64,000 bases of DNA from Sulfurihydrogenibium subterraneum DSM 15120 (lineage in GTDB: Bacteria; Aquificota; Aquificia; Aquificales; Hydrogenothermaceae): positions 101,771-165,770 of the forward strand of contig NZ_JHUV01000009.1 in NCBI RefSeq assembly GCF_000619805.1, written 5' to 3'. Below, piece by piece: positions 10,764 through 64,000 of the stretch (its first letter is position 1; each line of letters opens with the position of its first letter). The position numbers and the translations under genes are program-made. The notes beneath the pieces were generated by a model, which was given only the letters and a program-made list of their open reading frames with translations, was not told the DNA's origin and searched no databases.

Positions 10764-11981
10764 TTAATATAATCTAAAGTGTCTATTTAAGAACTTCTGC
10801 CAAGTAGTTGGTAATTTATCTATCTCTTCTTGTGCTATCTTTAGAACCTTGTCTTTTATTTTGTTGATATCACAGGTAGCTCTGAGTTTTACGTCGCAAA
10901 CTTGAGGCTGGGTTATAGGTTTTCCTATCTGGCTTACAAGATAGCAGTATGCTTCTTCTACTTCTTCAATCTCTGCTACTATTCTTTCTGCCATATCCAT
11001 TGCAGCTGTATTATAAATCTTACCAATGTGGCTAACAGGGTTTTTACCTGCTGCAGCTTCTAAGCTCATAGGTCTGTAAGGTGTGATAAGTCCATTAACC
11101 CTGTTTCCTCTACCTACCTGTCCATCATCTCCAGCTTCTGCTGAAGTTCCTGTTACAGTTATGTAAACGGATTGATTATCTATATCGTCAGCTGTGTTTA
11201 TAAAGATATCAACGTGTTTTGTTGTTAATCTTTGAGCTATAGAATAAGCATAGTTGGTAACAATTTCTTTCTTTTCTATGTAATCTTTTATATCGTTTAC
11301 GTATTTATCAACAAAAGCCATAGCTATTGTAATTCTTATGTTGTCTTTATTTCTAACACCCATTATTTTAATATCTTCTCCAACGTAGGGATGGTCTTTT
11401 TTGAAATCTTTATTGTTTAAAGCTCTTTCAAGCTCGTAAACTATTGTTTCAATATCAGAAAAAGGAGCAAAACCAACACCAAAGGAAGTATCGTTAGCAA
11501 GAGGAATTTCACCTTTTAACTGGAATCTTTCAAAAAGCTCAACAAGATCTTTACTTCCAGGTTTTAGCTTAGGATGAATGATTACATGATTTACAATATC
11601 TAAATTTGGGATGTTTTCTTTTAACCATTTGTGAGCTGTTTCTACTGCAAGCTCCTTAACAGGAAGTTTTTTACCACCTTTTTCATCAATTGCTCTACCT
11701 GTTAGGTATATCTCTATAGGTTCTACTATTTTTCCACCTTTAAACTGAGGGTCTGCAACACCACCTATTAAAAGTGCTTTATCAACGTTATGGTGCATAA
11801 TTGCTCCAAACTCTTCTCTATAGAGATTGGATAAAGCTATAGAAAGCTCTTCTGCTAATGCATCACAGATAGTATCAGGGTGGCCTGTTCCTTTTCTTTC
11901 AACGATTTCAACAGGCTGAGAAGATACTTTTTCAAACTCTAAAATACCTACGTTGATATTTGCCAATCTAAACCTCCTCAA
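10764..11981 (-). CDS. archaeal-type S-adenosylmethionine synthetase (methionine adenosyltransferase, MAT)
   Basis: 405 aa with an N-terminus ...ERKGTGHPDTICDALAEELS... that resembles archaeal MAT rather than bacterial MetK (which has a GHPDK.. N-terminus and ~385 aa). Confidence 0.8.
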   Translation of the reverse strand: MRRFRLANINVGILEFEKVSSQPVEIVERKGTGHPDTICDALAEELSIALSNLYREEFGAIMHHNVDKALLIGGVADPQFKGGKIVEPIEIYLTGRAIDEKGGKKLPVKELAVETAHKWLKENIPNLDIVNHVIIHPKLKPGSKDLVELFERFQLKGEIPLANDTSFGVGFAPFSDIETIVYELERALNNKDFKKDHPYVGEDIKIMGVRNKDNIRITIAMAFVDKYVNDIKDYIEKKEIVTNYAYSIAQRLTTKHVDIFINTADDIDNQSVYITVTGTSAEAGDDGQVGRGNRVNGLITPYRPMSLEAAAGKNPVSHIGKIYNTAAMDMAERIVAEIEEVEEAYCYLVSQIGKPITQPQVCDVKLRATCDINKIKDKVLKIAQEEIDKLPTTWQKFLNRHFRLY

Positions 11982-27300: not shown

Positions 27301-27989
27301 ATCCACCAAGAAGAAACGCCGTCTTATTAGCTATAGCACCAACAGCTTCCATATCAATTATAGCCGGAACCTCTTCAAGTATAGACAACTATTTCTCTAA
27401 TATCTTCTCGAGGGATACACTGTCAGGAAAGTTTATAGTTATAAACAAACCACTTATGAAAGAGTTAGAAGAAAGTGGATTATGGTCAGAGGAGCTGGCG
27501 GAAAAGATAAAAGCCCACCAAGGAAGTATCCAGTACATAGAAGAGTTAGACGGTAAGATAGATAAATCTCTATATAAAACAGCTTACGAAGTATCACCTT
27601 ACAGACAGATAGATATAGCAGCTGCATTCCAAGAGCACATAGATCAAGCAGTGTCTAAGTCTTTATACATAGAGGAAGATTTAAGAGATAAGATGGAAGA
27701 TATATACATGTACGCTTGGGAAAAAGGTTTAAAATCTACTTACTACTGCTTTATCGATAAAACAGTCAAAGGTGAAAAGTACACTATGAATGTTAATAAA
27801 CGTGGAGAAAGAAGAGGTTTTGGACTTGCAAGAAGAAACGATAAAGAGTTAGAAAAAGAGCTTGAGGAAATTGAAAAACAGGCAAGGGAAAAGTATGGAG
27901 ATGAAGTTGTAGATGCTGTAAAAAGCGGTAATATAGAAGGCTGTCCAACAGACCCTTTACTTGCAAAGATATGTCCAAGTTGTGAGTAA
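24321..27989 (+). CDS. nrdA: ribonucleoside-diphosphate reductase alpha subunit (class I) interrupted in-frame by an intein
   Basis: ATP-cone N-terminus and an RNR barrel (NLCTEI, catalytic cysteines, C-terminal CPSCE tail). Extein length ~790 aa once the 432-aa intein is removed. Confidence 0.95.
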   Translation: MQRIVIKRDGTVEKFQMKKLVDAIFALLEGLELPDDYEIVFKVAKELDLKIPEKVTTEELDYLVLKAIEHLIPKNYIYDTLATRQLLKIINRRIDRRFRSFKDYINYAVEEKLLKPELLQFDLDRIENAIDYSRDYNLDYFGLSTLKDRYLMKDREFETIEKPQWFFMRVAMGIGNTEDEIIKIYNKLSNLEYLHSTPTLFNSGTLTNQYSSCFPAGTPVITKDGVKNIEDIKIGDVVLTAEGNYRVVSGLFSRKYQRDLYKLHVWGLWGKEETVKATDDHKFLVLKKEDIECNRKFVKVCPPYQNTEKCYPVKKQYAYTCEEVETNLLENLKWVEAKDIEAGDYIVIPYPKEISEKVELNILDYVDNPYLVEKDGFIYKVNHDKQKRTPEFNNQINKIKSRIKIDYDFMRFLGYYVAEGYINKSGNKLSTVFTFGVKDKEFIEDVISLSKKLFDINPTVAHNKDNSVRITINSTYLSQFIKNLVGTGFNKKILPPEVMLANPEAQKGLIVGLFRGDATAVSDGYRLTLSNKTLIYQTFHILLRIGSLPRISKALKNQLATEDPYSVHISINDSEDLIKLINKDTYKITAKPDKTKINSYRFRYKDFVFYKITKVEKETFDGIVYDFEVRGDHSFTANLVAAHNCYVNVVDDSLESIMDKAKETAFLAKYAGGVGTDVTRIRATGSKIHSLNAKSSGIIPFIKIFDTIVNAIQQGGRRRSSQVMYLQPWHLDVEAFLDLRETTGNPYFRTPSLNTALWMPDELMRRIKEGEPIYLFDPAECPKLVTAWGEEFKKEYEKCIEKAEKGELKLWKKIDSKDFYKKYLFKLAKTGHPWLTFKDRHNEKNPCPQYSVINSSNLCTEISIPNSPESTAVCTLASVNLARHVKEDKSDFDWDKLKDTLETMVVALDNILDKNFYPSEESRKNTMDLRPIGIGVMGFHEALIKLGISYDSDKAVETARKIAKFMREVTYAKSQELAKERGAFPHYYEANYDYPPRRNAVLLAIAPTASISIIAGTSSSIDNYFSNIFSRDTLSGKFIVINKPLMKELEESGLWSEELAEKIKAHQGSIQYIEELDGKIDKSLYKTAYEVSPYRQIDIAAAFQEHIDQAVSKSLYIEEDLRDKMEDIYMYAWEKGLKSTYYCFIDKTVKGEKYTMNVNKRGERRGFGLARRNDKELEKELEEIEKQAREKYGDEVVDAVKSGNIEGCPTDPLLAKICPSCE
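24957..26252 (+). mobile_element. intein (432 aa) with a LAGLIDADG homing-endonuclease domain inside nrdA
   Basis: It starts with Cys after ...QYSS and ends ...VAAHN, followed by the extein Cys (CYVN). Block A CFPAGTPVITKDG, LAGLIDADG-like LGYYVAEGY and LIVGLFRGDAT, and a terminal HN. Confidence 0.85.
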
Positions 27990-40946: not shown

Positions 40947-41339
40947 TTGTATATGGCTAAGGTTGTAAAATTTAACTTTGAAGATTTACAAGAAAATACT
41001 ACAACAGAAGATAAACAGCAGGAAACTCCTCAGCAAGATGAAAAAGATCTTATAAGACAAGCTTTAGAAGACCATGTACTTTCAAACTTTGCCGTAAAAA
41101 CTATACTAGGAATGAACTTTGTATATAAAGTCAATAAAAACGACGTAGGAGTTATAGGACAACTTGCTTACGAGCACAAAAGAAGACCTGGGGTGTTTGT
41201 TGCAGATTACATAGCAAAAGGATATAAACAAAAAGACAAGTATATAATAGACAGTCTTGCATTTGAACTAGGAGAACCAGAATTTTATAAACAGATCTTT
41301 AACATTCTAAAAGCTAAAAAGGCTCTTCCAGAGTTATAA
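40947..41339 (+). CDS. hypothetical protein (130 aa) whose stop codon abuts the right end of the TnpB element
   Basis: ORF with an acidic, Q-rich N-terminus and no motif. The stop TAA at 41337-41339 is immediately followed by the element's terminal hairpin. Confidence 0.4.
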   Translation: MYMAKVVKFNFEDLQENTTTEDKQQETPQQDEKDLIRQALEDHVLSNFAVKTILGMNFVYKVNKNDVGVIGQLAYEHKRRPGVFVADYIAKGYKQKDKYIIDSLAFELGEPEFYKQIFNILKAKKALPEL

Positions 41340-41560
41340 GGTACACTTACAGATACTAACTGGTAAACAAATGTAATCAAAAGATTATAAAAAATTGTTT
41401 ACCAGTGTTCTCTTGCAGTGTACCCGTAATGGCCTTCTACCTGCTATCTCTAATAAAGACTCGCAGGTTACTTTTGAAATTAAGTTAAGTGTTAATCTTA
41501 TCGGCCTCGAAAGTTTGTCTATTAGTGTTTCCTCGTCTATTAGAGGCTTTGCCTCTTTCC
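41338..41560 (-). ncRNA. candidate omega-RNA (reRNA)-like scaffold overlapping the tnpB 3' end and right end
   Basis: By analogy with IS605 TnpB elements, the omega-RNA derives from the tnpB 3' end plus the right end. This ~220-bp segment is the part conserved in the ORF-less derivative copy, and it contains nested inverted repeats (41360-41370/41395-41405 and 41340-41352/41413-41425). Confidence 0.3.
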
Positions 41561-43007
41561 TTAATATGTTATAACTCCCTACTGCATTTGCGTTAAATAC
41601 TTTATTCGTTATGTTATCTTTATATAGCCCTCTTTTTATTCTTATTCCGTTATAAAGTTGGTTTAATTTCTCTTTTAACTGCTTTAAAATTCCTTCATTC
41701 CCTTCCGTTTTTGCTTTTAAATACTCTTTCCCTGTTTCTAATACTTTGTGTAAATCTGCAAATGGTGATGTCTTACTTGTAAATTCTTCTGCTACTTCTG
41801 TTAATTTTACTCCGTATTCTTCTAATTTATATTTTAACTGATTTATTAGCTTTCTAAAAGGTATGTTTACAAAGTTTTGGTTTGTTTTTGTGCTGAGGTT
41901 TATTCCGTTTTTACTTTCTGTTGCTCCTTTTCCTATATAGACTTCTTTATGTCCTGTTTCATTTAAAAAGTCTGTTATTTTTCTTGTTATCTTATGGAAT
42001 GTATCTGTTATCCATCTGTTTCTGTATGCTGATAATTCTTTTTGTTTTTTTATTAGTAGTTTCTTTTCTTTCTCTAAGGCTGTTGTATCTAAATTGTCTT
42101 TTTGTAGTTTGTTTATCTGGTTTTGAATGTTATCTATTTTTGATTGCAGTTTTGCTTTTTCTTTGTTATACCACTGATTTATTGATTTTATTTCTTTGCC
42201 TGATACTATTATTGTCTGTAATTCTTTGTTTGTTGAAAAGAGTGTTATTAGATTATCAAGTCCTAAATCTATTCCTGCTATGTGTGTTTTTTCTTGATTA
42301 GAGTTAATTTGTGTTTCTGGTATTGTGTAAACTATATCCACGTATATATCGCTTGCTATAAACTTTATTCTTGCTGATTTTATTTCATAGTTAAAGTCTT
42401 TTGGTAATTTTACTTTTAGATACTGTTTTTCTTCTTTATTATTTGTTAGTGTTATTAGTAGATGTTTTCCTTTTTCTTCTTCTAATACTTTAAATGTGTT
42501 TACATTAAGTTCTGCTGTAAATGATGGAATGTCTTTTAATTTTTTAGCTTTTGGTGGTCTTGGAATTGCATTGAAGGAATTTGAATTTTCTTTATATTTT
42601 TGTATGCTTTTGAAAAAACTTTTGTAGTCTTTTATAAGTTGTCTTATTAGTGTTTGGACTGTGTAGTTGTTTTTTATTTTTTGTTTTTGTTTTATTAGTT
42701 TATCTTGAAAATCTTTTAGCTGGTTTACTTTCTCTATATTATCTGTAATAGTTTTAAATTCTTTAAGTTTTTCTATGAAATTCTCTTTACTTTCTCTTGG
42801 TTTATAACCTTTATTATTTACAAGTGCATACAGATAACTCTCATTTAGTATCCATCTTCCGTAGTTTTGTTGATATATTTTGTTGAAGATAATAAGCAGG
42901 TTTCTAAATTGCGCTAATGAGTATAGAAGGTTTGATATTTTTTCTTTTCTCTGTTTTCCGCTTATCCTGATGCTTAGTATTCTTTTTGCTGTTTTATTTA
43001 ATTGCAT
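41385..43007 (-). CDS. TnpB-like (IS605 OrfB family) protein, 540 aa, with degenerate RuvC-II/III residues and no zinc finger
   Basis: TnpB-like N-terminal region (RILSIRISGKQRKEKISNLLYSLAQFRNLLIIFNKIY), a WED-like segment, and a RuvC-I motif IAGIDLGLDNL. The YKLEEYGVKLTEVAEEFTSKTSP segment aligns to the TnpB RuvC-II to zinc-finger junction but has no Cys. The RuvC-III-like motif FNANAVGSYNIL carries Asn where the catalytic Asp is expected. The whole protein has only 2 Cys. Confidence 0.6.
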   Translation of the reverse strand: MQLNKTAKRILSIRISGKQRKEKISNLLYSLAQFRNLLIIFNKIYQQNYGRWILNESYLYALVNNKGYKPRESKENFIEKLKEFKTITDNIEKVNQLKDFQDKLIKQKQKIKNNYTVQTLIRQLIKDYKSFFKSIQKYKENSNSFNAIPRPPKAKKLKDIPSFTAELNVNTFKVLEEEKGKHLLITLTNNKEEKQYLKVKLPKDFNYEIKSARIKFIASDIYVDIVYTIPETQINSNQEKTHIAGIDLGLDNLITLFSTNKELQTIIVSGKEIKSINQWYNKEKAKLQSKIDNIQNQINKLQKDNLDTTALEKEKKLLIKKQKELSAYRNRWITDTFHKITRKITDFLNETGHKEVYIGKGATESKNGINLSTKTNQNFVNIPFRKLINQLKYKLEEYGVKLTEVAEEFTSKTSPFADLHKVLETGKEYLKAKTEGNEGILKQLKEKLNQLYNGIRIKRGLYKDNITNKVFNANAVGSYNILRKEAKPLIDEETLIDKLSRPIRLTLNLISKVTCESLLEIAGRRPLRVHCKRTLVNNFL

Positions 43008-43118
43008 TTAATATTTTTTTTGCTTTTATTTGTATAATCATATAATTTTTTGATATAATTTGTCAATAAGTTTTAAGAAACTATAGGCTATATATTCACT
43101 AAAAAGAGAGGTTTAAAA

Positions 43119-52802: not shown

Positions 52803-54113
52803 TTATTTGTTTTCAAAAACTCTTTTGTATATATAATCAATATTCTTTAAAAATTCATCAACATTAAAAATTTTGTCTATTTCTTCTTTTGTCAAGCGTG
52901 AATTAACATCAGGGTCTTGTAAGAGGGTATCCTTAAACATTAGTCCTTCTGTATCCCAAGCTTTCATAGCGTTTCTCTGGACTATATCGTAAGCTTCGTC
53001 TCTTGATAGTCCTTTTTCTACCAGTGCAACCAATACTTTTGATGAGAAGTATAAACCTTTTGATTTATCCATATTTTTTCTCATGTTTTCAGGATAGACA
53101 ACTAAGTCTTTTAAAACATTTTTTGTAAGGTGTAGTATGTAATCAAGGGCTATGGCAGTATCAGGCATAATAACTCTTTCAACTGATGAGTGGGATATAT
53201 CTCTTTCGTGCCATAGGGCTATATCTTCCATTGCTGGAATTGCGTTTGCCCTTATTACTCTTGCAAGTCCTGTAATTCTCTCACAGGTTATAGGATTTTT
53301 CTTGTGAGGCATTGCGGAAGAGCCTCTTTGTCCTTTTTTAAATGGTTCTTGAGCTTCTAAAACTTCAGTCCTTTGTAAGTGTCTTATCTCAACTGCTATT
53401 TTTTCTAATGAAGAAGCTGTTATTGCCATAGCCGTCATAAACTCTGCATGTCTATCTCTTTGTATAACCTGATTTGCAACAGGCTCAGGTTTTAGTCCAA
53501 GCTCTGCAAGGGTAAGTTCTTCAAGTTGTGGTGGAATGTTTGAATAGGTTCCAACAGCTCCTGAAATTGTTCCTACTGACACTACTTCCCTTGCATTTTC
53601 AAGTCTTCTTTTATTTCTTTTAAACTCTTCATACCACAGGGCAAACTTTAAGCCGAAAACCATTGGTTCAGCGTGAACTCCGTGAGTCCTTCCCATCATA
53701 ACAGTATCTTTGTATTTAAATGCATTTTCTTTAAGTATCTCTAAAAGCTCGTCAACACTTTCTATAAGTAGGTCTAAAGCTTCTCTCATAACAAGGGCTA
53801 AAGCTGTATCTATAACATCCGAGGAAGTAAGTCCAAGGTGTATGTACCTTCCGTTTTCTCCTACCTGTTGGGCTACAGCTGTTACGAATGCTAAAACGTC
53901 GTGGTTGTATATTTTGTCAAGCTCGTGTATCTTTTCTACTGTTTGGTCATCTATATGAGTCTTTTCTATAATTTCTTTTAAAGCATCGTCTGGGATTTTC
54001 CCCATTTTATTCCAAGCCTTACAAACGGCTATCTCTACATCAAGCCATTTTTGAAATTTATTTTTTTCGCTCCATATATAACCCATCTGTTCTCTTGTGT
54101 ATCTTTTTATCAT
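52803..54113 (-). CDS. purB: adenylosuccinate lyase
   Basis: Fumarase/ASL family signature ([10 protein letters not shown]) in a 436-aa protein. Confidence 0.95.
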
Positions 54114-55558
54114 GAGAGCTCCTCTTTTAGTATTTTGTTAACAAGTTGTGGATTTGCTTTTCCTTTTGTTTCTTTCATTATTTGACCTACTAAAAATCCT
54201 AATATTTTTTCGTTTCCTGATTTGTATTTTTCTACTTCTGCTGGGTGTTTTTCTAAGACTGCTTTTACTATAGACCTGATTTCATCTTCGTTTGATATTT
54301 GTTTTAAACCCTTTTCTTCTACTATACTTTTTGGTGATTTTCCTGTTTCAAAGGCAATGTCAAAGACTTCTTTTGCTATCTTTCCTGATATTGTTCCATC
54401 TGCTATGAGAGATATAAGCTCTGCAAAACTAACAGGTGAAATAGGTGAATTTTCTATTTCTATACCTTTTTCGTTTAATCTTCCAAGTAGTTCGTTTAGA
54501 ATCCAGTTTGAGACTAATTTTGGATTTTGTGAAAAGTGTTTAATTACTTCTTCAAAGTAGTTTGCAAGATTTTTATCTGACGTTAAAACTTCTGCATCAT
54601 AAGGTGGAAGGTTAAAGGATTGAATGTATCTGTGATACTTTTGGTCTGGGAGCTCTGGAAGGGATTTTTTTATCTCTTCTATCTGGGAATCTTTTAAGAC
54701 TATTGGTAGTAGGTCTGGGTCTGGGAAGTATCTGTAGTCGTGTGCCTCTTCTTTTGTTCTCATTGTGTAGGTTTTACCTGAATCTGGGTCAAAGAGTCTT
54801 GTCTCTTGGATTATTTTTTCTCCTTTTTTTAGGAGTTTTGCCTGTCTTTCTATTTCGTATTCAATGGCTTTTACTATAAATCTAAATGAGTTTATGTTTT
54901 TAAGTTCTACTTTTGTTCCAAGTTGGCTTGCGCCTTTTGGTTTTAGTGATATGTTAACGTCACATCTAAGCTGTCCTTTTTCCATATCAGCTTCTGATAC
55001 GCCTATGTATCTCATTATGTTTCTTAGTTTTTCTAAATACTTCCTTGCCTCTTCAGCTGAAGATATATCTGGCTCGGTAACTATTTCCATTAAAGGAGTT
55101 CCAGCTCTGTTTAAATCTACGTAGGATTTGCTACCTTCGTGTATGGTTTTTCCTGCATCTTCTTCTATATGAAGTCTGTGGATTCTTATCTTTTTAAACT
55201 CATCTTCTAACTTTATCTCTATGTAGCCATCTGTTGCTAAGGGTTTGTCATACTGAGATATTTGATAACCTTTTGGAAGGTCAGGATAAAAGTAATTTTT
55301 CCTTGCCATTATTGAAAGGTTGTGGACTTTACAATTTAAGGCTAAAGCTGCTTTTACAGCATACTCAATGGCTGTTTTGTTTATTACAGGTAAGCTACCA
55401 GGGTGGGCAAGGCATACAGGACATATGTTTGTGTTAGGTGGAGCTCCATACTCTACCTTACATCCACAAAACATTTTTGTTTTTGTGTTCATCTGGACGT
55501 GGGTTTCAAGACCTATAACTACGTCAAACTCTTTTTCTAAAGCTACAGCTGACTCCAT
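54110..55558 (-). CDS. gatB: Asp-tRNA(Asn)/Glu-tRNA(Gln) amidotransferase subunit B
   Basis: [20 protein letters not shown]...[13 protein letters not shown]-terminus and a C-terminal YqeY-like domain. Confidence 0.95.
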
Positions 55559-55577: not shown

Positions 55578-55877
55578 TTATTTTTTTCCAGAAAGTGGAG
55601 CTTTAAGGTTTTTTATAGCTCTCTCTGATGCAAATTTGTATCTTATGTCTTGTTTTGCTAATTTTTCTAACTCTGCTTTAATCTGTTTTTCAGCTTCATC
55701 ACTAGCGTTTTTATAGCCAAGGACGTAGGCAACTATGGCTATTAGTGCAAAGCCAAAAAACTCAACTATTTTCCCTAAAACTGTAGATGTTGATTGTAAA
55801 AATAAACCTCCAACTGCCATTATTATTCCAGCTGCAAGAATAAACTTCCAGTATTTTAAGATAGTTTCTCCAAGCAT
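55578..55877 (-). CDS. small membrane protein, hypothetical
   Basis: The longer ORF (to 56000) would overlap tRNA-Ser. An internal ATG at 55875-55877 is preceded by AAGGAG, giving a ~99-aa protein with two TM segments. Confidence 0.4.
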   Translation of the reverse strand: MLGETILKYWKFILAAGIIMAVGGLFLQSTSTVLGKIVEFFGFALIAIVAYVLGYKNASDEAEKQIKAELEKLAKQDIRYKFASERAIKNLKAPLSGKK

Positions 55878-55957: not shown

Positions 55958-56045
55958 GGAGGAGTGGCTGAGTGGACGAAAGCGGGTGATTTGAAATCAC
56001 TTGAGGGTTGACAGCCCTCCGGGGGTTCGAATCCCTCCTCCTCCG
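55958..56045 (+). tRNA. tRNA-Ser (UGA anticodon)
   Basis: 88 nt with acceptor GGAGGAG/CTCCTCC, anticodon stem GGTGA/TCACT around loop TTTGAAA (anticodon TGA), a long variable arm, and T-arm GGGGGTTCGAATCCCTC. Confidence 0.9.
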
Positions 56046-56349
56046 CTTAACATTTACCTTGACAACCGAATAGGTTTTAATCCCACTTAAGTTTTTGATA
56101 ATCTGGTAAAATTAACTTATTAATAACAATTATTATTAAGTTTTGCATCGTGATAACAGAAAATATATTATTGTAATAATCAAGTAGTGATAAGGGTGAA
56201 AGTGGGAATATAATAGAAAATATATTTGCATTATGTGAGGTTTGATGCAATTAACCTCAATTTGTGAGCGGTTAACGAAAATAAAAACTGCCAGCAAACC
56301 AGTATCATTACTTGATTATTTAAAATTTTTTATTTTTAAAAATTAACGG

Positions 56350-56907
56350 GTTTTGTCTGAACTATGTGGGATAGAAAGGAAAATCAAAAAAATAGCTGAA
56401 GAAGAGCTACAAGCTGGTTTTGTCTGAACTATGTGGGATAGAAAGTTGAAGCTGCTTTGTTAACAACTTCTGCTTTTATTACGTTTTGTCTGAACTATGT
56501 GGGATAGAAAGGAACATTTTTTTATTATTTTCTTTTTTATTTTTTCTAGTTTTGTCTGAACTATGTGGGATAGAAAGACGAGTGCTGTTATTATAGCACC
56601 CGCATAAGGAAAAAGTTTTGTCTGAACTATGTGGGATAGAAAGTTTCTAACATGACATCATCAATCTCAAAATATTTTTTGGTTTTGTCTGAACTATGTG
56701 GGATAGAAAGTCATCGTATTGAGAGGTAAATTTTATCACTGGGACTAAGTTTTGTCTGAACTATGTGGGATAGAAAGTAATTCTCCCTGCCACGAATGAC
56801 TGCACTGATACCTGTTTTGTCTGAACTATGTGGGATAGAAAGGTTTTTCTTCTGGGTTGTAGTATTTCCTGTATTCCTGTTTTGTCTGAACTATGTGGGA
56901 TAGGTTT
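56350..56907 (+). CRISPR. CRISPR array of nine 29-nt repeats (GTTTTGTCTGAACTATGTGGGATAGAAAG) and eight 36-38-nt spacers. The last repeat is degenerate, and no cas genes occur within the window.
   Basis: Perfect direct repeats begin at 56350, 56417, 56483, 56549, 56615, 56682, 56749 and 56814, with a degenerate copy at 56879-56907 (...GGGATAGgttt). An AT-rich 300-bp leader lies between tRNA-Ser and the first repeat. The repeat 3' end, ATAGAAAG, resembles a Cas6-type 8-nt handle. Confidence 0.9.
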
Positions 56908-56957
56908 AATTACAATTTTTAAACAGAGAGCTTATAAAAACGATTATGATATCGTTT

Positions 56958-57231
56958 ATAGTTTCTAAAAACTTATTGACAAATCATATCGAAAGATTAT
57001 ATAATTATGTATATGAAAGCAAAAGAATATTAAAAGTTTTAAGAATAAGTAGAATAACATAATTAATGAAAGAGGCAAAGCCTCTAAGGACGGTAAGATT
57101 AACGCTTAACTTAATTTGAAAAGTAACCTGCGAGTCTCTATTAGAGATAGCAGGTAGAAGGCCATTACGGGTACACTGCAAGATAGCTTTGTTTACCAGT
57201 TAGTATCTGTAAGTGTACCTTGAATGATGAA
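56958..57231 (+). mobile_element. internally deleted (MITE-like) derivative of the 41338-43080 TnpB element, in the opposite orientation
   Basis: 56958-57047 aligns, on the opposite strand, to 43000-43080 (for example ATAGTTTCTAAAAACTTATTGACAAAT). 57061-57231 aligns to 41340-41550 with a ~30-bp internal deletion and a 41-to-6-bp indel. Its + strand still encodes a C-terminal remnant, ...KVTCESLLEIAGRRPLRVHCK, interrupted by a TGA. Confidence 0.6.
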
Positions 57232-57395
57232 AAATAGAGTGTATAAGTTTTACACTATCAAGGAAGCTGTAAGAAATCTCTAGCTAATTTTAAATAAGTT
57301 TAAACCCAAAACAATGATTATCATTACAATAATAGAAGCTATAAGTAAGATTTTTAGTTTTCGATTTTCTGCTTTCACTTCATTTAATTTTTTTC

Positions 57396-57968
57396 TTACA
57401 GGCGAAAAACTGCTTTGACCTCCTCTAACATCTTTTTTCTCTCTTCATCTGATACGTATGGTACAGCATAAAATATTTTGTGCTGAATAACTTTCATTCC
57501 GCAGAAGGTAAATATTCCACCTATTGTCTTTTTCAAACATTCTGACATTCCAGTAGATACAGCTGTATTTTCATCTTCTCCCATAGTATTGAAAATAATT
57601 ACTTTTTTGTCAGTTAGAAGTGGTTTTATTTCGCCGTTTTCTTCAGCGTAAGCAAAACCGTAAGAAAAAACTCTATCTATGTATCCTTTTAGTATAGCTG
57701 GCATTGAGTACCACCATATTGGATGAATTACAACTAGTGTATCAGCATTTTTTACAAGGGTTTGTTGATGTTTAACATCGTCTAAAACTTTGCTTTGCAT
57801 TATAGCTTCAAAGCCTTGAGGTTTTAACACTGGGTCAAAGTTTATTTGGTACAAATCTACAGTTTCAAAGCTTTTTCCTGCATTTTTTAAAGTTTCTTCA
57901 ATAGTACTTTTTATAGCAGAGTTAAAACTCTTTGGATTTGGATGAGCGTAGATTATAAGATAATCCAT
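57396..57968 (-). CDS. NAD(P)H dehydrogenase (quinone)-like flavodoxin-fold oxidoreductase
   Basis: MDYLIIYAHPNPKSFN... is a Flavodoxin_2 pattern, 190 aa. Confidence 0.75.
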   Translation of the reverse strand: MDYLIIYAHPNPKSFNSAIKSTIEETLKNAGKSFETVDLYQINFDPVLKPQGFEAIMQSKVLDDVKHQQTLVKNADTLVVIHPIWWYSMPAILKGYIDRVFSYGFAYAEENGEIKPLLTDKKVIIFNTMGEDENTAVSTGMSECLKKTIGGIFTFCGMKVIQHKIFYAVPYVSDEERKKMLEEVKAVFRL

Positions 57969-58023
57969 GTGAAACCTCCTTTGTGAGAATTTATTTTTGC
58001 TTAAAATCTAATATTGCATAAGT

Positions 58024-58251
58024 TCATGTTGCATATGCGACAAGTTCATCGTTAAAAGTTATCTCTACTACTGCAAAAGCAACACTTTTACCGATTTTTA
58101 AAACTTTACCAATAGCTTTTAAAGTGCCTTTCTTTGCAGGTGCATGTTTAAGGCTCTCCCTGTTAGATATAAATCCTAAAATTTCAAATATCACTCCCAT
58201 CATCGTTAAAGCTATTGCAAAATGCACTGTAGGTGGATGTAGCTCTGTCAT
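58024..58251 (-). CDS. small membrane protein, possibly DUF2231-like
   Basis: HPPTVHFAIAL motif and one TM segment. 75 aa. Confidence 0.3.
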   Translation of the reverse strand: MTELHPPTVHFAIALTMMGVIFEILGFISNRESLKHAPAKKGTLKAIGKVLKIGKSVAFAVVEITFNDELVAYAT

Positions 58252-58253
58252 TG

Positions 58254-58937
58254 TTATTCCCCCTTATAATAACTTTCATCTTTAAACTTTACTTTTAAAT
58301 GAGTTCCATCACAGAAAGGCTTATTTTTTGAGTTTCCACATCTACAGAGTGTAATTCTATTTCTTATCTGATAAATGTATCCTTTCGAGGATTCTATCGG
58401 TATTCCACCTTTTACCCATATAGCAGAACTAACCCCTTTTAGATTATCTTCTAAAATAGTTATCTCTTTTTCTAAATTAGGTTCAATGTAATTACCATTT
58501 TTATCCTTTAAAACTAATCTTCCTGAAGGACAGTTTGAAACTATTTGTAAAATATCTTCATACTTTTCCTTATTATTTGGTTCTTTTATGATATCCCATA
58601 TTCCTTTTCCTTTTAGACAAAATCTTGCAGATGCACAAAGATACTTAATATCTAAAAGGTCTAAATCCTGTCCTTCAAATGTTTTGATATGCTCATCTTT
58701 AATCTCAATATCAGCTGTTTCTTCACCATCAAATCCTTGTTTATGTGAACCATTACAAAAAGGTTTGTTTTTTGATAGTCCACATCTACACAAAGCATAA
58801 GTTTCTTTTGTCTCAAATTTTTCCATTTTTTTCCAAGATTGAGGTATTATCATTTTATAGCTAATCATTTCTTCTCTGTATAGAGGAATATTACCTTCTA
58901 CTAAATATGGACCATTTTTTAGAACTTTTATTTTCAT
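58254..58937 (-). CDS. CDGSH-type iron-sulfur domain protein (two CDGSH motifs)
   Basis: CRCGLSKNKPFCNGSH and CRCGNSKNKPFCDGTH, the 2Fe-2S NEET-fold signatures. Confidence 0.8.
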   Translation of the reverse strand: MKIKVLKNGPYLVEGNIPLYREEMISYKMIIPQSWKKMEKFETKETYALCRCGLSKNKPFCNGSHKQGFDGEETADIEIKDEHIKTFEGQDLDLLDIKYLCASARFCLKGKGIWDIIKEPNNKEKYEDILQIVSNCPSGRLVLKDKNGNYIEPNLEKEITILEDNLKGVSSAIWVKGGIPIESSKGYIYQIRNRITLCRCGNSKNKPFCDGTHLKVKFKDESYYKGE

Positions 58938-59043
58938 TGATTAACTCCGGCTTTTGACTTAAGAATAAGAAGTGGTTATAGATTCTGATATATACTATGA
59001 TTTAAGTCATAAAAAAGCCCTCAGATAGAGGGCTGTGAATGGT

Positions 59044-59268
59044 TTAGCTATTTTTTGATAGAAACTCTTTTATCTTTAGCTCCATCAAATCTTTAAGGTA
59101 AAGTTTTCTTCTTTTTAATCTTTCTTCTTCTGCTTCCAGCTCTGGATCAGGTGGAAAGTGTTTTTCAATTTTAGAAACTTTCCATTCTAAATCTTTGTGT
59201 TCTTCGTACCAGTGTTTAAACTCTTCGTCTGTTTCTAAAAGTTTTTGAATTGCTTCTTCCCTTGTCAT
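59044..59268 (-). CDS. small coiled-coil protein, DUF465-like
   Basis: A 74-aa helical protein with an HxxL...LE pattern. Weak. Confidence 0.35.
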   Translation of the reverse strand: MTREEAIQKLLETDEEFKHWYEEHKDLEWKVSKIEKHFPPDPELEAEEERLKRRKLYLKDLMELKIKEFLSKNS

Positions 59269-59295
59269 AGCTTCACTCCTTTATTTAAAATTTTT

Positions 59296-60579
<1,284 letters not shown>

Positions 60580-60591
60580 TTATAACATGGC

Positions 60592-61527
60592 TTAAAAATG
60601 TCTAAAACCTCTGTTGTCTAACTTTTGAACTTTTCCTTGAGTTTTTAAGTAAACTCCTTCTCCTTCTTCTACGTATCCTATTTTTATTAAGTCTAAATCT
60701 TTATCGGAAGTTAAGGCAAGTTCGTACTCTTCTCCGCTATAAAAAATATACTCGTAAGGGTCTTTATTGTACTTTTGGCAAAACATTTTTAATCTTTCGT
60801 CAATTGGTAATTTTTCCTTTTCTATTACTATCTTTACTTTACTTTTTTCCGATATATGTCTTAAATCTGATACTAAACTATCGCTTACGTCTATACAGCT
60901 TGAAGATAGTTTTACTTTTTCTAAAAGGTCTATCCTTGCTTTTGGTTTGTAATGTTTTTGTATTAACTGTTTTTCAAACTCTTCATAACTATCTTTATTC
61001 ATTAAGATAAGTTCTAATCCTGCTTTTGATAAACCTAAGTTTGAAGATATATAAACATACTCTCCTGCCTTTGCTTTGTCTCTTCCTATAAATCTATCTG
61101 TCTGTCCTACCATTGACATGTCTATCATGAGCTGTTTTGAAGAAGATACATTTCCACCTATTGTAAAAAATCCGTAGTAGTCTTGAGCTTCTTTAATGCC
61201 TTCGTAAACGCCTTTTATAAACTCGTAATTTAAATCTTTTGGTAGAGCAAGAGAGATTAAAGCCCATCTTGGTTTTCCACCACAAGAGACTATATCGCTT
61301 ACATTTGAAGTAGAAAGCTTCCAACCTAAATCTTTTGGATTTATCTTCTCTTTAAGAAAGTGGGAGCCTTCCACTTGAATATCAACAGTAAAAAGTAAAA
61401 ACTCACTTCCTACTTTAACACAGGCACAGTCATCGCCATAGCCTACAATAACATCTTGGTCGTTTATTGGTAAAATCCGATTTAACTTATCAATAAGCCC
61501 AAACTCGCCTAACTCTTGGATTTTCAT
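60592..61527 (-). CDS. thiL: thiamine-monophosphate kinase
   Basis: N-terminal EFGLIDKL...GDDCA and an AIR-synthase-related fold. Confidence 0.8.
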   Translation of the reverse strand: MKIQELGEFGLIDKLNRILPINDQDVIVGYGDDCACVKVGSEFLLFTVDIQVEGSHFLKEKINPKDLGWKLSTSNVSDIVSCGGKPRWALISLALPKDLNYEFIKGVYEGIKEAQDYYGFFTIGGNVSSSKQLMIDMSMVGQTDRFIGRDKAKAGEYVYISSNLGLSKAGLELILMNKDSYEEFEKQLIQKHYKPKARIDLLEKVKLSSSCIDVSDSLVSDLRHISEKSKVKIVIEKEKLPIDERLKMFCQKYNKDPYEYIFYSGEEYELALTSDKDLDLIKIGYVEEGEGVYLKTQGKVQKLDNRGFRHF

Positions 61528-62702
61528 TAAAACATAAGCCTCATAGCTTCTTTTACTTCTTCCATTGTTTTACTGGCTATTTCCCTTGCTTTTTCGTTTC
61601 CTTCAGCTATTATTCTATCAAGTAGCTGTCTGTCTTTTTCCAATTCTTTTCTTTTTTCTCTGATGGGGGACAAAAATTTGTTTATGTTTTCTGCAAGTAT
61701 TTTTTTACACTCTATACATCCTATCTCTGCACTTCTACACTTTTGGTCTATCTGTTTTACTGTTTCCTCATCAGTAAAGTACTTGTGATAGCTAAATACA
61801 TTACAGACCTCTGGTCTTCCGGGGATAGATTTTTTAACTCTCTGGGTGTCTGTTTTCATAGATAAAACTTTTTTGTTTAACTGCTGTTCATCTTCACTAA
61901 GGGCTATCGTGTTTCCGTAAGATTTAGACATCTTTCTTCCATCTGTTCCAAGCAGTTTTGAAGCTTCTGTAAGTAATGCTTTTGGTTCTACAAAAACAGG
62001 TTTGTAAAGGTGGTTAAACCTTCTTGCTATTTCTCTGGTTATTTCTATGTGAGGAAGCTGGTCTTCTCCTACAGGGACTGCTTGCGCTTTGTAGATGAGT
62101 ATATCAGAAGCCATTAAAACTGGATAACCAAAAAATCCATAAGTATCTATATCTTTGCCTATATCTCCCTCTTTTAAATTAAATACTATCTCGTTTGATA
62201 GACTTTCATCTATAGATAGCTTTATCAAGCTTTCTTTAAGATATTCAAAATCTATTTCTTTTTTATGATAAAAACTTTCATAAACTATCTGTCTTACTGT
62301 ATCTTCTTCTATTTTTATACCTTTTCCAAATAAAAAGTCTCTAACATACTGAAAAAATAGGTTAAATTTTAAATCTTTGTAAGATGGGTTTAGTTCAAGC
62401 CAGCTTTTAGGTGTTATCATTCCAAGAAGTAATGTTAGTTCTGCGTGCTGTTTTACAGCTGACTGGACAAAGATTGTGGCTTTTGACGGGTCTATTCCGC
62501 AGGATATCCAGTCTATAACAAGGTCGTATATATTTTCCTTTAAATCAGAGGTGTCTTTATACTTGTTTGTTAAAGCATGCCAATCTGCAACAAAGAAAAA
62601 ACATTCATCACTGTTTTGAAGGTTAATCCAGTTTTTTATAACACCAAAGTAATGTCCAAGATGGAGCTTACCAGTTGGACGCATACCACTAACTATTCTC
62701 AT
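61527..62702 (-). CDS. trpS: tryptophan--tRNA ligase
   Basis: Class I motifs: HIGH-like PTGKLHLGHY and KMSKS (GRKMSKSYGN). Confidence 0.85.
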   Translation of the reverse strand: MRIVSGMRPTGKLHLGHYFGVIKNWINLQNSDECFFFVADWHALTNKYKDTSDLKENIYDLVIDWISCGIDPSKATIFVQSAVKQHAELTLLLGMITPKSWLELNPSYKDLKFNLFFQYVRDFLFGKGIKIEEDTVRQIVYESFYHKKEIDFEYLKESLIKLSIDESLSNEIVFNLKEGDIGKDIDTYGFFGYPVLMASDILIYKAQAVPVGEDQLPHIEITREIARRFNHLYKPVFVEPKALLTEASKLLGTDGRKMSKSYGNTIALSEDEQQLNKKVLSMKTDTQRVKKSIPGRPEVCNVFSYHKYFTDEETVKQIDQKCRSAEIGCIECKKILAENINKFLSPIREKRKELEKDRQLLDRIIAEGNEKAREIASKTMEEVKEAMRLMF

Positions 62703-62759
62703 AAAGCATCCTCCGATTTTTGTTATAATAATTTTACGATAAATTTGGAGGTTTTAAAA

Positions 62760-63257
62760 TTGATAAGAGGAAAAGTTTGGAAATTTAGAGATGACGTAGA
62801 TACAGACCAGATAATACCTGCAAGATACCTTGTTACAACAGACCCTAAAGAGCTTGCAAAACACGTTATGGAAGATGCAGACCCTACTTTTCCGTCAAAA
62901 GTGAAAGAAGGAGATATTTTGGTTGCAGGTAAAAACTTTGGTTGTGGTTCATCAAGGGAGCACGCTCCACTGGCTATAAAAGGAGCTGGCATATCAGCAG
63001 TAGTTGCAGAATCTTTTGCAAGAATATTTTTCAGAAATGCTATTAACTTAGGACTTTTGATAATAGAATCTCCAGAAGCTGCAAAAGAAGCTGACGAAGG
63101 AGATGTACTTGAAATAGATATAAACCAAGGTGTTATTAGAAACATTACCAAAGGAAAAGAGTATAAAATAAAACCACTTCCAGAAAACTTGCAAGCAATT
63201 TTAAAAACAGGTGGTTTAATGGAGTATGCAAAAGAAAGGATAAAGAATGCTTCATAA
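62760..63257 (+). CDS. leuD: 3-isopropylmalate dehydratase small subunit (aconitase-family swivel domain)
   Basis: IRGKVWKFRDDVDTDQIIPARYL is the LeuD signature. TTG start at 62760 after GGAGG; the upstream in-frame extension in the ORF track is probably not translated. Confidence 0.85.
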   Translation: MIRGKVWKFRDDVDTDQIIPARYLVTTDPKELAKHVMEDADPTFPSKVKEGDILVAGKNFGCGSSREHAPLAIKGAGISAVVAESFARIFFRNAINLGLLIIESPEAAKEADEGDVLEIDINQGVIRNITKGKEYKIKPLPENLQAILKTGGLMEYAKERIKNAS

Positions 63258-64000
63258 TTTAGTTGTACCTGTAGACCTTACAGATACAGGTAAAAAAGCT
63301 TTAGAAGTAGCGGTTAAAATCTCAAAAGAGTTTAACTCTAAAGTATGGATTATAACAGTTTTAGAAAAGCCAAACATTCCCTTTCTGCAGGATCTTCCAG
63401 AGGAAGAAAGAAATGCAATTTTATCTTTAAATGAAAAACTTAAAAGCAAAGCCATAGAAACCCTTGAAAGTTATAAGGAATATCTTAAAACTCAAGATGT
63501 AGATACAGAGTATAAAATATTAGAAGGTGATACAGTAGAAAGTATTTTGGACTTTTGTGAAACTATTGCTCCAGATTTAATTATAATGCCATCTCATCGA
63601 AAGTCAGATATAGAATTACAGGCTATAGGAAGTGTGTCTTTAAGGGTTGCGTCAAAGTCAAAATACCCAGTATTAGTTATAAAAGGGTCTTCTTTAAACT
63701 TTAATAAAATTGCTGTAGCTTACGACTTTTTACCATCTTCCCAAGAAGCTCTTGAATTTACACTTTCCTTATCAAAACATTTTGGTAGTAAAATAGTTGT
63801 TATACACGCAGACAATGACAGAAATTATTCTCACCTAAAATCTGTCCTTGAAAAAGTAAGACAGCACAAAATTGAAAAACTTCAGCAGTTGAAAAATCTC
63901 TATGAAAATATTGAAGTTTATCTAACAGAAGGAAGTCCTGATAAAGTAATTATAGAAAAAGCAGTAAAAGAAAACGCAGATTTAATAGTTGTAGGAAAAA
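63247..64000 (+). CDS. tandem universal stress protein (UspA) domain protein, 3' truncated at the window edge
   Basis: Two USP-like halves (LVVPVDLTD...VLVIKG and IAVAYDF...LIVVGK). The ATG overlaps the leuD stop. Confidence 0.8.
   Translation, partial: MLHNLVVPVDLTDTGKKALEVAVKISKEFNSKVWIITVLEKPNIPFLQDLPEEERNAILSLNEKLKSKAIETLESYKEYLKTQDVDTEYKILEGDTVESILDFCETIAPDLIIMPSHRKSDIELQAIGSVSLRVASKSKYPVLVIKGSSLNFNKIAVAYDFLPSSQEALEFTLSLSKHFGSKIVVIHADNDRNYSHLKSVLEKVRQHKIEKLQQLKNLYENIEVYLTEGSPDKVIIEKAVKENADLIVVGK

What the first reader, a model, noticed from the sequence alone, without database searches (positions are those of the whole stretch)
56046..56907. CRISPR array directly downstream of tRNA-Ser(UGA) with no cas genes in the window
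Nine identical 29-nt repeats with 36-38-nt spacers and a degenerate terminal repeat make a bona fide array. Its leader is the AT-rich 300 bp after tRNA-Ser. Within 60 kb there is no cas1, cas2, cas6 or effector, and the flanking genes are gatB, a small membrane protein, an NAD(P)H oxidoreductase and a CDGSH protein. The repeat has a weak CTATGTGGGATAG hairpin, and its 3' end ATAGAAAG resembles the 8-nt handle left by Cas6 in type I/III systems, so the array is probably served in trans by a cas locus elsewhere. The placement next to a tRNA and the MITE suggests an integration hot spot. Spacer 3 is low-complexity A/T (gaacatttttttattattttcttttttattttttcta).
Basis: seen in the sequence. Interest (0 to 1): 0.6.

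Follow-up and report, generated by a model that had tools for sequence, protein, structure and literature searches.

The report
Remote CRISPR array, cas6 encoded elsewhere
This is a genuine but ordinary secondary CRISPR array of the type I-B repeat family in Sulfurihydrogenibium subterraneum: it has a conserved leader, and its matching Cas6 processing enzyme is encoded on another contig of the same genome.

Summary
The array is real, with a small correction to the count. There are eight identical 29-nt repeats (GTTTTGTCTGAACTATGTGGGATAGAAAG) plus one terminal repeat truncated at its 3' end, and eight unique 36-38-nt spacers, at 56350-56907 (+). No cas gene lies in the window or in the 4 kb beyond its end.

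The array is not an orphan in the genomic sense. The source is S. subterraneum, which encodes a Cas6 (WP_028949877.1) on a different contig, at the position of the type I-B operon of S. azorense (90% identical Cas6).

The 303 nt after tRNA-Ser are a true leader. They are 89% identical to the leader of the cas-adjacent I-B array of S. azorense Az-Fu1.

The repeat is identical to that of an array beside a cmr(III-B)-cas6 locus in another MAG, whose Cas6 groups with Hydrogenothermaceae sequences. It matches the S. azorense I-B array at 28 of 29 positions and a Bacillus plasmid I-B array at 27 of 29.

S. azorense MAGs carry the same array at the same tRNA-Ser site, with different spacers.

One caveat: in S. 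subterraneum an IS110-family element interrupts cas8b just after cas6, and the rest of the operon could not be seen.

The neighbouring MITE is an internally deleted TnpB element. No protospacers were found. This is an ordinary finding of low novelty.

The parts
55958..56046 (+). tRNA-Ser(UGA). Homology with the S. azorense cas-adjacent leader begins about 10 nt after its 3' end.
   Evidence: ARAGORN; Rfam tRNA, 57 bits; leader alignment
56047..56349 (+). CRISPR leader, 303 nt, 26% G+C. It is 89% identical to the leader of the cas-adjacent type I-B array of S. azorense Az-Fu1, 85% to the leader at the same tRNA-Ser site in an S. azorense MAG, and 66% to the leader of a cmr-cas6 array.
56187..56214 (+). 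Candidate leader promoter, GTGATA-16-TATAAT (10 of 12). The -10 hexamer is kept in all aligned leaders and the -35 in the window and the cmr-cas6 leader (GTGATG in S. azorense). Inferred promoter of the pre-crRNA.
56239..56256 (+). Leader motif GGTTTGATGCAATTAACC. It corresponds to a GGTTYRMTGCAAAAT-like block found in the leaders of related type I-B arrays from a Bacillus plasmid and from hot-spring metagenome contigs.
56350..56907 (+). CRISPR array: 8 identical 29-nt repeats, 1 terminal repeat truncated at its 3' end, and 8 unique spacers of 36-38 nt.
56879..56907 (+). Terminal repeat GTTTTGTCTGAACTATGTGGGATAG followed by GTTT. In S. azorense the terminal repeat is complete (…ATAGAAAG) and is followed by GTTTAGG. 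The window copy therefore looks like the same junction with a 4-nt AAAG deletion.
56957..57221 (+). MITE: an internally deleted copy of the TnpB element at 41338-43093. Only the left end and the 3'/right end are retained.
56976..57005 (+). Perfect sigma-70 consensus (TTGACA-18-TATAAT) inside the MITE left end. The full-length element has TTGACA and TATGAT at the same place, upstream of tnpB.
57054..57221 (+). Part of the MITE that matches the tnpB 3' end and right end at 94-100% identity. The stretch 57040-57240, which includes it, folds with z = -3.4. Inferred to be an omega-RNA (reRNA) scaffold. Homology ends exactly at 57221.
41338..43093 (-). Full-length TnpB-only element. The 540-aa TnpB (41388-43007) matches OrfB_IS605, Cas12f1-like_TNB and NCBIfam guided_TnpB (107 bits against a cut-off of 100). 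It is the parent of the MITE and is not a CRISPR effector of this array.
54113..55558 (-). gatB, the flanking housekeeping gene used for synteny.
55581..55877 (-). Small 99-aa protein conserved next to gatB in S. azorense and S. yellowstonense; no family match.
57399..57968 (-). Flavodoxin_2 NAD(P)H-dependent oxidoreductase (WP_028950404.1), the downstream flank.

Best explanation
This is a secondary CRISPR array of the Cas6b / type I-B repeat family, located away from any cas genes, in Sulfurihydrogenibium subterraneum. It consists of a complete, conserved leader, eight repeat-spacer units and a decayed terminal repeat, all read on the + strand away from tRNA-Ser. The proposed mechanism has four steps. 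(1) Transcription starts in the leader, probably at the conserved GTGATA-16-TATAAT promoter about 135 nt before repeat 1 (inferred). (2) The pre-crRNA is cut within each repeat by the Cas6 encoded on another contig (WP_028949877.1), leaving an 8-nt AUAGAAAG 5' handle. The presence of the gene is shown; the cleavage and its position are inferred from what is known of Cas6 enzymes of type I-B and type III systems. (3) The crRNAs are loaded into whatever effector the genome still has. That would be the type I-B Cascade if the operon is functional, or a type III-B Cmr complex, as in a relative whose cmr-cas6 locus sits beside an array with the identical repeat (inferred). (4) Because the leader is about 89% identical to that of the cas-adjacent array in S. 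azorense, a Cas1-Cas2-Cas4 integrase could add spacers here as well. That this works in the lineage is indicated by S. azorense MAGs, whose arrays at the same site share trailer-side spacers but differ in their other spacers, including those nearest the leader. In S. subterraneum itself, an IS110-family insertion in cas8b means that I-B interference may currently be off.
For: Array anatomy. Repeat family: Rfam CRISPR-DR43. The repeat matches at 27 of 29 positions the array downstream of cas6-cas8b1-cas7-cas5-cas3 on a Bacillus plasmid. It matches at 26 of 29 the array downstream of a complete hot-spring I-B operon with cas4-cas1, at 28 of 29 the array beside the complete I-B operon of S. azorense Az-Fu1, and at 29 of 29 the array beside cmr1-6 plus cas6 in MAG contig JAEDZT010000270. 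Orientation: in all related arrays the degenerate repeat is at the end far from the leader. Leader homology. Cognate Cas6 in the same genome. It is 90% identical to the Az-Fu1 Cas6 without gaps, 76% identical to the Cas6 beside the identical repeat, and has the glycine-rich C-terminal motif GIGNRTGQGFG. The synteny of the cas6 locus matches the Az-Fu1 I-B operon. The same assembly GCA_046297635.1 carries both the tRNA-Ser-site array (contig 3) and a complete I-B operon with its own array (contig 33). Two S. azorense MAG arrays share 2 spacers on the trailer side.
Against: Only cas6 and 61 codons of cas8b could be seen in S. subterraneum. An IS110-family transposase gene follows, and the Logan contig ends inside it. 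Whether cas7, cas5, cas3, cas4, cas1 and cas2 or any cmr genes exist in this genome is therefore unknown. No protospacer was found in INPHARED phages, PLSDB plasmids, IMG/VR (seven spacers, exact 22-26-mers), the window or any fetched locus. No expression data are available. The array is short (8 spacers, against 14 in the complete S. azorense MAG array at this site, at least 5 in a second MAG array cut by a contig end, and 24 beside the Az-Fu1 cas operon), and a MITE has landed beside it.
Confidence: 0.8

Rival explanations
1. The array is a relic of a decaying system. The IS110 insertion in cas8b has inactivated the type I-B system, so the array is still transcribed and perhaps processed, but it no longer acquires spacers or directs interference.
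For: cas8b is interrupted after codon 61 by an IS110-family element. The array has only 8 spacers against 14-24 in the complete S. azorense arrays. The terminal repeat has lost 4 nt. A MITE sits 50 nt downstream. In S. azorense Az-Fu1 the array at this very site has already been lost to an IS that cuts the leader. No spacer matches were found.
Against: All 8 repeats are identical. The leader is 89% conserved, including its -10 promoter hexamer. cas6 is full-length and 90% identical to its orthologue. The IS insertion may be recent or specific to the strain. The genes after the IS were not seen and may be intact and expressed. A type III effector could still use the crRNAs.
Confidence: 0.3
2. 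The crRNAs from this array are used mainly by a type III-B (Cmr) complex rather than by type I-B Cascade.
For: The identical 29-nt repeat and a homologous leader lie directly beside cmr1-cmr6, a SAVED-Lon (CalpL-like) gene and cas6 in contig JAEDZT010000270. That Cas6 is 76% identical to the S. subterraneum Cas6. Type III-B CalpL systems are described in papers that name the genus, judging from titles and abstracts found.
Against: No cmr gene of S. subterraneum was seen. Its cas6 sits at the position of the I-B operon, not at a cmr locus.
Confidence: 0.2
3. This is a true orphan array, with no cas genes anywhere in the genome.
For: There are no cas genes in the 64-kb window or in the 4 kb beyond it. 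An exact 24-mer of the repeat was not found in the GTDB representative genomes.
Against: Cas6 WP_028949877.1 is annotated in S. subterraneum on a 436,944-bp contig and is present in the same sequencing run.
Confidence: 0.02
4. The array belongs to the Cas12f-like/TnpB protein encoded 13 kb upstream (a type V-like system).
For: PADLOC Cas12f and Cas12u models hit the 540-aa protein at 41388-43007.
Against: The protein passes the NCBIfam guided_TnpB cut-off. It lies inside a transposon-like unit whose ends recur as a MITE. Thirteen kilobases of housekeeping genes separate it from the array. The repeat family is tied to Cas6 and type I-B or III-B loci in five independent contexts.
Confidence: 0.01

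Closest known systems
Array beside the type I-B operon of Sulfurihydrogenibium azorense Az-Fu1 (CP001229, about 755.6-757.2 kb; cas6-cas8b-cas7-cas5-cas3-cas4-cas1-cas2)
   Same: The repeat matches at 28 of 29 positions. The roughly 300-nt leader is 89% identical. The Cas6 is 90% identical to the S. subterraneum Cas6. The cas locus has the same genomic neighbours.
   Different: That array is adjacent to its cas genes and has 25 repeats. The window array is on another contig from cas6, sits next to tRNA-Ser, has 9 repeats and uses the ATAGAAAG variant, which in S. azorense survives only in terminal repeats.
Array at the same tRNA-Ser site in S. azorense MAGs (GCA_029335825.2, GCA_046297635.1)
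   Same: The flanks are the same (gatB, small protein, tRNA-Ser, leader, array, oxidoreductase). The leader is 85% identical. The terminal repeat is identical to the window repeat. The array is remote from the I-B operon of the same assembly.
   Different: No spacers are shared. The arrays have 14 and at least 5 spacers. Two unknown ORFs and a solitary repeat follow the array there, where the window has a MITE.
Array beside a type III-B cmr1-6 / SAVED-Lon / cas6 locus in MAG contig JAEDZT010000270 (GCA_017880035.1)
   Same: The repeat is identical at 29 of 29 positions. The leader is homologous (66%). The Cas6 is 76% identical.
   Different: That array is adjacent to a Cmr effector locus, and no cmr genes were seen for S. 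subterraneum.
Type I-B arrays on Bacillus cereus-group plasmids (for example Bacillus sp. DX3.1, NZ_CP128161) and on hot-spring metagenome contigs (Ga0308396_1001120)
   Same: Same repeat family (27 of 29 and 26 of 29 positions). Spacers of 35-38 nt, against 36-38 nt here. The terminal repeat is degenerate at its 3' end. A leader motif is shared. Their Cas6 proteins are homologous to one another and to the Hydrogenobaculum-like Cas6 whose family includes the S. subterraneum Cas6, at 28-36% identity.
   Different: They come from different phyla, and their arrays are adjacent to the cas genes and co-oriented with them.
Rfam RF01352 CRISPR-DR43
   Same: All eight full repeats score 36.2 bits against a gathering score of 35.
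   Different: The match is on the - strand. Comparison with cas-adjacent relatives shows that the transcribed orientation is +.

Membership tests
CRISPR array | At least 3 near-identical direct repeats of 23-47 nt, separated by unique spacers of similar length | tested here: met
   8 identical repeats plus 1 degenerate 29-nt repeat; 8 unique spacers of 36-38 nt; 0 matches expected by chance
CRISPR array | A+T-rich leader at one end and a degenerate repeat at the other | tested here: met
   303-nt leader with 26% G+C, 89% identical to a cas-adjacent leader. The terminal repeat is truncated at its 3' end, as in related arrays
CRISPR array | Spacers derived from mobile genetic elements | tested here: inconclusive
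   No credible match in phages, plasmids, IMG/VR, the window or the fetched loci. Viruses from this habitat are poorly sampled.
CRISPR array | Transcribed and processed into crRNAs | not testable with these tools
   No RNA data. There is only a promoter-like site whose -10 hexamer is kept in all aligned leaders.
Type I-B / Cas6b repeat family | Repeat sequence found next to cas6-cas8b-cas7-cas5-cas3 operons | tested here: met
   27 of 29 positions match a Bacillus plasmid I-B array, 26 of 29 a hot-spring I-B array, and 28 of 29 the S. azorense I-B array
Type I-B / Cas6b repeat family | Cognate Cas6 encoded in the same genome | tested here: met
   WP_028949877.1 [S. subterraneum] is full-length at 265 aa, 90% identical to the Az-Fu1 I-B Cas6, and matches Pfam Cas_Cas6_C
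Type I-B / Cas6b repeat family | Intact signature gene cas8b and the rest of the effector and adaptation modules in the same genome | tested here: inconclusive
   Only 61 codons of cas8b are seen before an IS110-family insertion, and the contig ends there
Orphan array (genome without cas genes) | No cas gene anywhere in the genome | tested here: not met
   cas6 is present on a 436,944-bp contig of the same assembly
Remote (cas-distal) array | No cas genes within about 10-20 kb of the array | tested here: met
   None in the 56 kb upstream or in about 11 kb downstream, that is 7 kb of window plus 4 kb of Logan contig. cas6 is on a different contig.
Array served by type III-B (Cmr) | cas10/cmr genes in the same genome | not tested
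   Seen only in a relative with the identical repeat.
MITE of an IS200/IS605-family TnpB element | Both ends of a full-length tnpB element retained, with the coding region deleted | tested here: met
   56949-57034 matches 43093-43007 (84%). 57054-57221 matches 41572-41338 (94-100%), with homology ending at the same base in both copies. TnpB passes the NCBIfam cut-off.

The most novel reading that the evidence does not exclude
The gap between tRNA-Ser/gatB and the oxidoreductase gene may be a recurrent landing and exchange site for whole leader-array modules in Sulfurihydrogenibium. Four observations point that way. A paralogue of the cas-adjacent leader and array begins about 10 nt after the tRNA 3' end. 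S. yellowstonense has an unrelated array in the opposite orientation at the same place. Az-Fu1 has lost the array to an IS. S. azorense MAGs carry a two-gene cassette bracketed by the terminal repeat and a solitary repeat. Together these would suggest that CRISPR arrays, and genes captured between repeats, move as cassettes by repeat- or tRNA-directed recombination. In S. subterraneum the array might outlive a broken I-B effector because a type III system or Cas6 alone still uses it.
Probability: 0.15. Interest if true: 0.45.

Novelty: already known. Interest (0 to 1): 0.2.

Why it matters
It matters little beyond correct annotation. Secondary arrays far from their cas operon are common in thermophiles. 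A survey of Aquificales found 1-13 arrays per genome, only some of them next to cas genes (PMC4227106). The useful outcome is a correction: an array without cas genes in a 64-kb view is not an orphan, since the cognate cas6 lies on another contig. The comparative picture may interest people who study CRISPR locus dynamics in hot-spring Aquificae, but it does not open a new question. That picture includes a conserved leader, the same site occupied differently in four relatives, an IS110 in cas8b, and a MITE derived from a TnpB element beside the array.

Tried and rejected
- **Repeat in representative genomes and metagenomes.** An exact 24-mer of the repeat gave 0 hits in GTDB representative genomes and 0 in JGI metagenomes. 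MAG GCA_017880035.1, which does carry the repeat, was not hit either.
- **Looser repeat pattern.** It found 19 metagenome loci, all ATATAAA-type relatives, and none in IMG/VR.
- **Spacers.** There was no credible hit in phages or plasmids. Seven exact sub-spacer scans of IMG/VR gave nothing. There were no self-matches in the window or in 118 fetched loci, apart from chance 16-17-mers of the low-complexity spacer 3.
- **Cas6 searches seeded from the Bacillus plasmid Cas6.** These returned only Firmicutes-type hits, and two look-ups of such hits were uninformative. The search that succeeded used a Hydrogenobaculum-like Cas6 from a metagenome locus, followed by cluster listings.
- **Failed look-ups.** Three window proteins chosen to extend beyond the window end were not on record. 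The 265-aa Cas6 form also failed; the 260-aa gene call worked.
- **Unknown ORFs.** The two ORFs beside the S. azorense arrays are not Cas6 (hhalign) and match nothing in PADLOC or PHROGs. The 556-aa ORF beyond the window end is a TPR protein, not a Cas8.
- **TnpB as effector.** This idea was rejected (see the rival explanations).
- **Literature.** A search for S. subterraneum cas genes gave nothing.

Full report
**1. The observation**

The region holds eight perfect copies of GTTTTGTCTGAACTATGTGGGATAGAAAG on the + strand, starting at 56350, 56417, 56483, 56549, 56615, 56682, 56749 and 56814. None is expected by chance. A ninth copy at 56879-56907 matches over 25 nt and ends GTTT. The eight spacers are unique and 36-38 nt long.

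Rfam CRISPR-DR43 matches every full repeat just above its gathering score. tRNA-Ser(UGA) ends at 56046, and the 303 nt up to repeat 1 are 26% G+C. The flanking genes are as described.

**2. No cas genes nearby**

I scanned 63 window ORFs against PADLOC and most of them against Pfam. The only cas-like hit is a 540-aa protein at 41388-43007 (-). It passes the NCBIfam guided_TnpB cut-off.

A Logan contig (SRR3314047_17) is 100% identical to window 57192-64000 and continues 3,968 nt past the window end. The genes there are a Usp protein, a TPR protein, a 206-aa unknown and transketolase. The array is therefore at least 56 kb from any cas operon on one side and about 11 kb on the other.

**3. Source organism**

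Exact protein look-ups place the window in Sulfurihydrogenibium subterraneum, on a 250,102-bp NCBI contig. The closest representative genome retrieved through GatB was S. yellowstonense SS-5, at 88% amino-acid identity.

**4. Which kind of repeat**

A BLAST of the array against plasmids hit CRISPR arrays on Bacillus cereus-group plasmids. In Bacillus sp. DX3.1 the repeat GTTTTATCTGAACTATGTGGGATATAAAG (27 of 29 positions) follows cas6-cas8b1-cas7-cas5-cas3 on the same strand.

A looser pattern found 19 metagenome loci. One carries WYL-cas6-cas8b-cas7-cas5-cas3-cas4-cas1 followed by the array. Another carries an array followed by cas6.

The Cas6 proteins of these loci are mutually homologous at 28-36% identity. 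In all of these arrays the repeat reads GTTTT…AAA(G/C/T) away from the leader, and the last repeat is degenerate at its 3' end. This fixes the + orientation here.

The repeat RNA folds only weakly: -5.6 kcal/mol at 37 °C, z = -1.95. That is compatible with a Cas6 that recognises sequence rather than structure. The 8-nt AUAGAAAG handle is an inference from what is known of Cas6 in type I-B and type III systems.

**5. The cas locus in trans**

Seeding a homology search with the metagenomic Cas6 that turned out to be Hydrogenobaculum-like returned an Aquificae-rich family. Cluster listings showed members from S. azorense (Az-Fu1 ACN99082.1 and MAGs) and from S. subterraneum. The S. subterraneum member is WP_028949877.1, 265 aa, on a 436,944-bp contig.

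The same gene lies on Logan contig SRR3314047_69, from the same run as the contig that is identical to the window. It is 90% identical, without gaps, to the Az-Fu1 Cas6.

In Az-Fu1 that gene heads a complete type I-B operon, cas6-cas8b-cas7-cas5-cas3-cas4-cas1-cas2. A 25-repeat array follows, with the repeat GTTTTGTCTGAACTATGTGGGATATAAAG (28 of 29). The upstream neighbours are the same in S. subterraneum: histone deacetylase, Mur ligase, NUDIX, thioredoxin-TPR and LolA.

In S. subterraneum only 61 codons of cas8b follow cas6, at 80% identity to the cas8b of S. azorense MAGs. An IS110-family transposase gene then lies on the opposite strand, and the Logan contig ends inside it.

**6. A second association**

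A MAG contig (JAEDZT010000270, 29% G+C) carries a SAVED-Lon gene, cmr1-cmr6 and cas6. Next to them is an array of nine repeats identical to the window repeat at 29 of 29 positions, with a homologous leader. Its Cas6 is 76% identical to the S. subterraneum Cas6. In this lineage, crRNAs with this repeat therefore serve both type I-B and type III-B loci.

**7. The leader**

I aligned the 303 nt after tRNA-Ser with four other sequences: the leader of the Az-Fu1 cas-adjacent array, the leader at the same tRNA-Ser site in an S. azorense MAG, the cmr-cas6 array leader, and the Az-Fu1 remnant at the tRNA-Ser site. Identities are 89%, 85%, 66% and 82% respectively.

The blocks shared by all include TTTTGCATCGTGA-AA-AGAAAATATATTATT and a GTGAT(A/G)-16-TATAAT promoter-like site. 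A shorter motif, GGTTYRMTGCAAAAT-like, is shared even with the Bacillus and hot-spring I-B leaders. Homology with the Az-Fu1 cas-adjacent leader begins about 10 nt after the tRNA 3' end. The 'A+T-rich 300 bp' is thus a real, conserved CRISPR leader, paralogous to the cas-adjacent one.

**8. The same site in relatives**

- **S. azorense MAGs.** They have tRNA-Ser, leader and array at the same place, with 14 and at least 5 spacers. The two MAG arrays share two trailer-side spacers with each other and none with the window. Their terminal repeat is the ATAGAAAG variant used throughout the window array.
- **One assembly with both loci.** GCA_046297635.1 holds this remote array and also a complete I-B operon with its own array on another contig.
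- **Az-Fu1.** It keeps tRNA-Ser and the first 214 nt of the leader. A DDE transposase follows and there is no array.
- **S. yellowstonense.** It has a different array next to the same small protein and gatB genes: GTTTGTAGCCTACCTATGAGGAATTGAAC, 18 repeats, opposite orientation, and no tRNA on the contig.

The site is therefore variable. The array of the azorense/subterraneum lineage looks inherited, and in S. azorense its spacer content has changed between MAGs.

**9. The MITE**

Window 56949-57034 matches 43093-43007 at 84%. Window 57054-57221 matches 41572-41338 at 94-100%. Homology ends at the same base in both copies. The MITE is therefore an internally deleted copy of the TnpB element.

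It keeps a perfect TTGACA-18-TATAAT promoter. It also keeps the structured 3' part (z = -3.4), which in TnpB elements encodes the guide RNA scaffold; that role is inferred here. It is unrelated to the function of the array.

**10. Targets**

No protospacer was found anywhere. The PAM and the targets remain unknown.

**11. Verdict**

This is a bona fide, ordinary, cas-distal CRISPR array of a known repeat family. Its current activity in S. subterraneum is uncertain because cas8b is interrupted. Interest is low.

Noticed in passing
window 41338-43093 (-) and 56957-57221 (+): A TnpB-only element encodes an unusually long, 540-aa TnpB and has a non-autonomous derivative next to the CRISPR array. 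The MITE keeps a perfect sigma-70 promoter and the structured part resembling an omega-RNA. The predicted guide would be 57222 onward (GAATGATGAAAAATAG).
   Followed up: partly
L118 10780-12030 (Logan SRR3314047_69, S. subterraneum): An IS110-family transposase gene interrupts cas8b after codon 61, directly downstream of an intact cas6. The contig ends inside the IS, so the state of the rest of the I-B operon is unknown.
   Followed up: partly
L108 11449-13207; L109 11420-13173 (S. azorense MAGs): Two ORFs of 211 and 251 aa, and a 44-aa ORF, lie between the terminal repeat of the tRNA-Ser array and a solitary further repeat copy. This is a gene cassette bracketed by CRISPR repeats. The ORFs have no match in Pfam (on record), PADLOC or PHROGs, and they are not Cas6.
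   Followed up: partly
L002 1185-2348 (S. yellowstonense SS-5): A different CRISPR array (GTTTGTAGCCTACCTATGAGGAATTGAAC, 18 repeats) occupies the equivalent position next to the small protein and gatB genes. It is in the opposite orientation, and there is no tRNA-Ser on the contig.
   Followed up: partly
L113 1262-1410: A 150-nt fragment, 79% identical to the middle of the window's CRISPR leader (56117-56266), lies upstream of a 280-aa ORF and the SAVED-Lon (CalpL-like) gene of a type III-B locus. No repeats follow it.
   Followed up: no
window 58027-58251 (-): This 75-aa ORF is a fusion remnant. Compared with S. azorense, about 583 bp are deleted, which joins the start of the DUF2231 gene to the end of the 4HBT thioesterase gene (window 58141 corresponds to L107 9834 and 9250).
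   Followed up: partly
window 24321-27986 (+): The ribonucleotide reductase large subunit (1,222 aa) carries an intein with a LAGLIDADG homing endonuclease domain.
   Followed up: no
L098 1317-3900; L104 255-6800: Hydrogenobaculum-like metagenome contigs carry very long arrays of the same repeat family in which the repeats are unusually heterogeneous, with many single-base variants along one array.
   Followed up: no
window 10767-11981 (-): An archaeal-type S-adenosylmethionine synthetase (Pfam PF01941) lies in this bacterial genome.
   Followed up: no
window 56239-56256 and leaders of L082, L091, L094: A short leader motif (GGTTYRMTGCAAAAT-like) recurs upstream of type I-B arrays of this repeat family in different phyla: roughly 110 nt before repeat 1 in the window and the two metagenome leaders, and about 80 nt before it on the Bacillus plasmid. 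It may be a binding site for a regulator or an integration host factor.
   Followed up: partly
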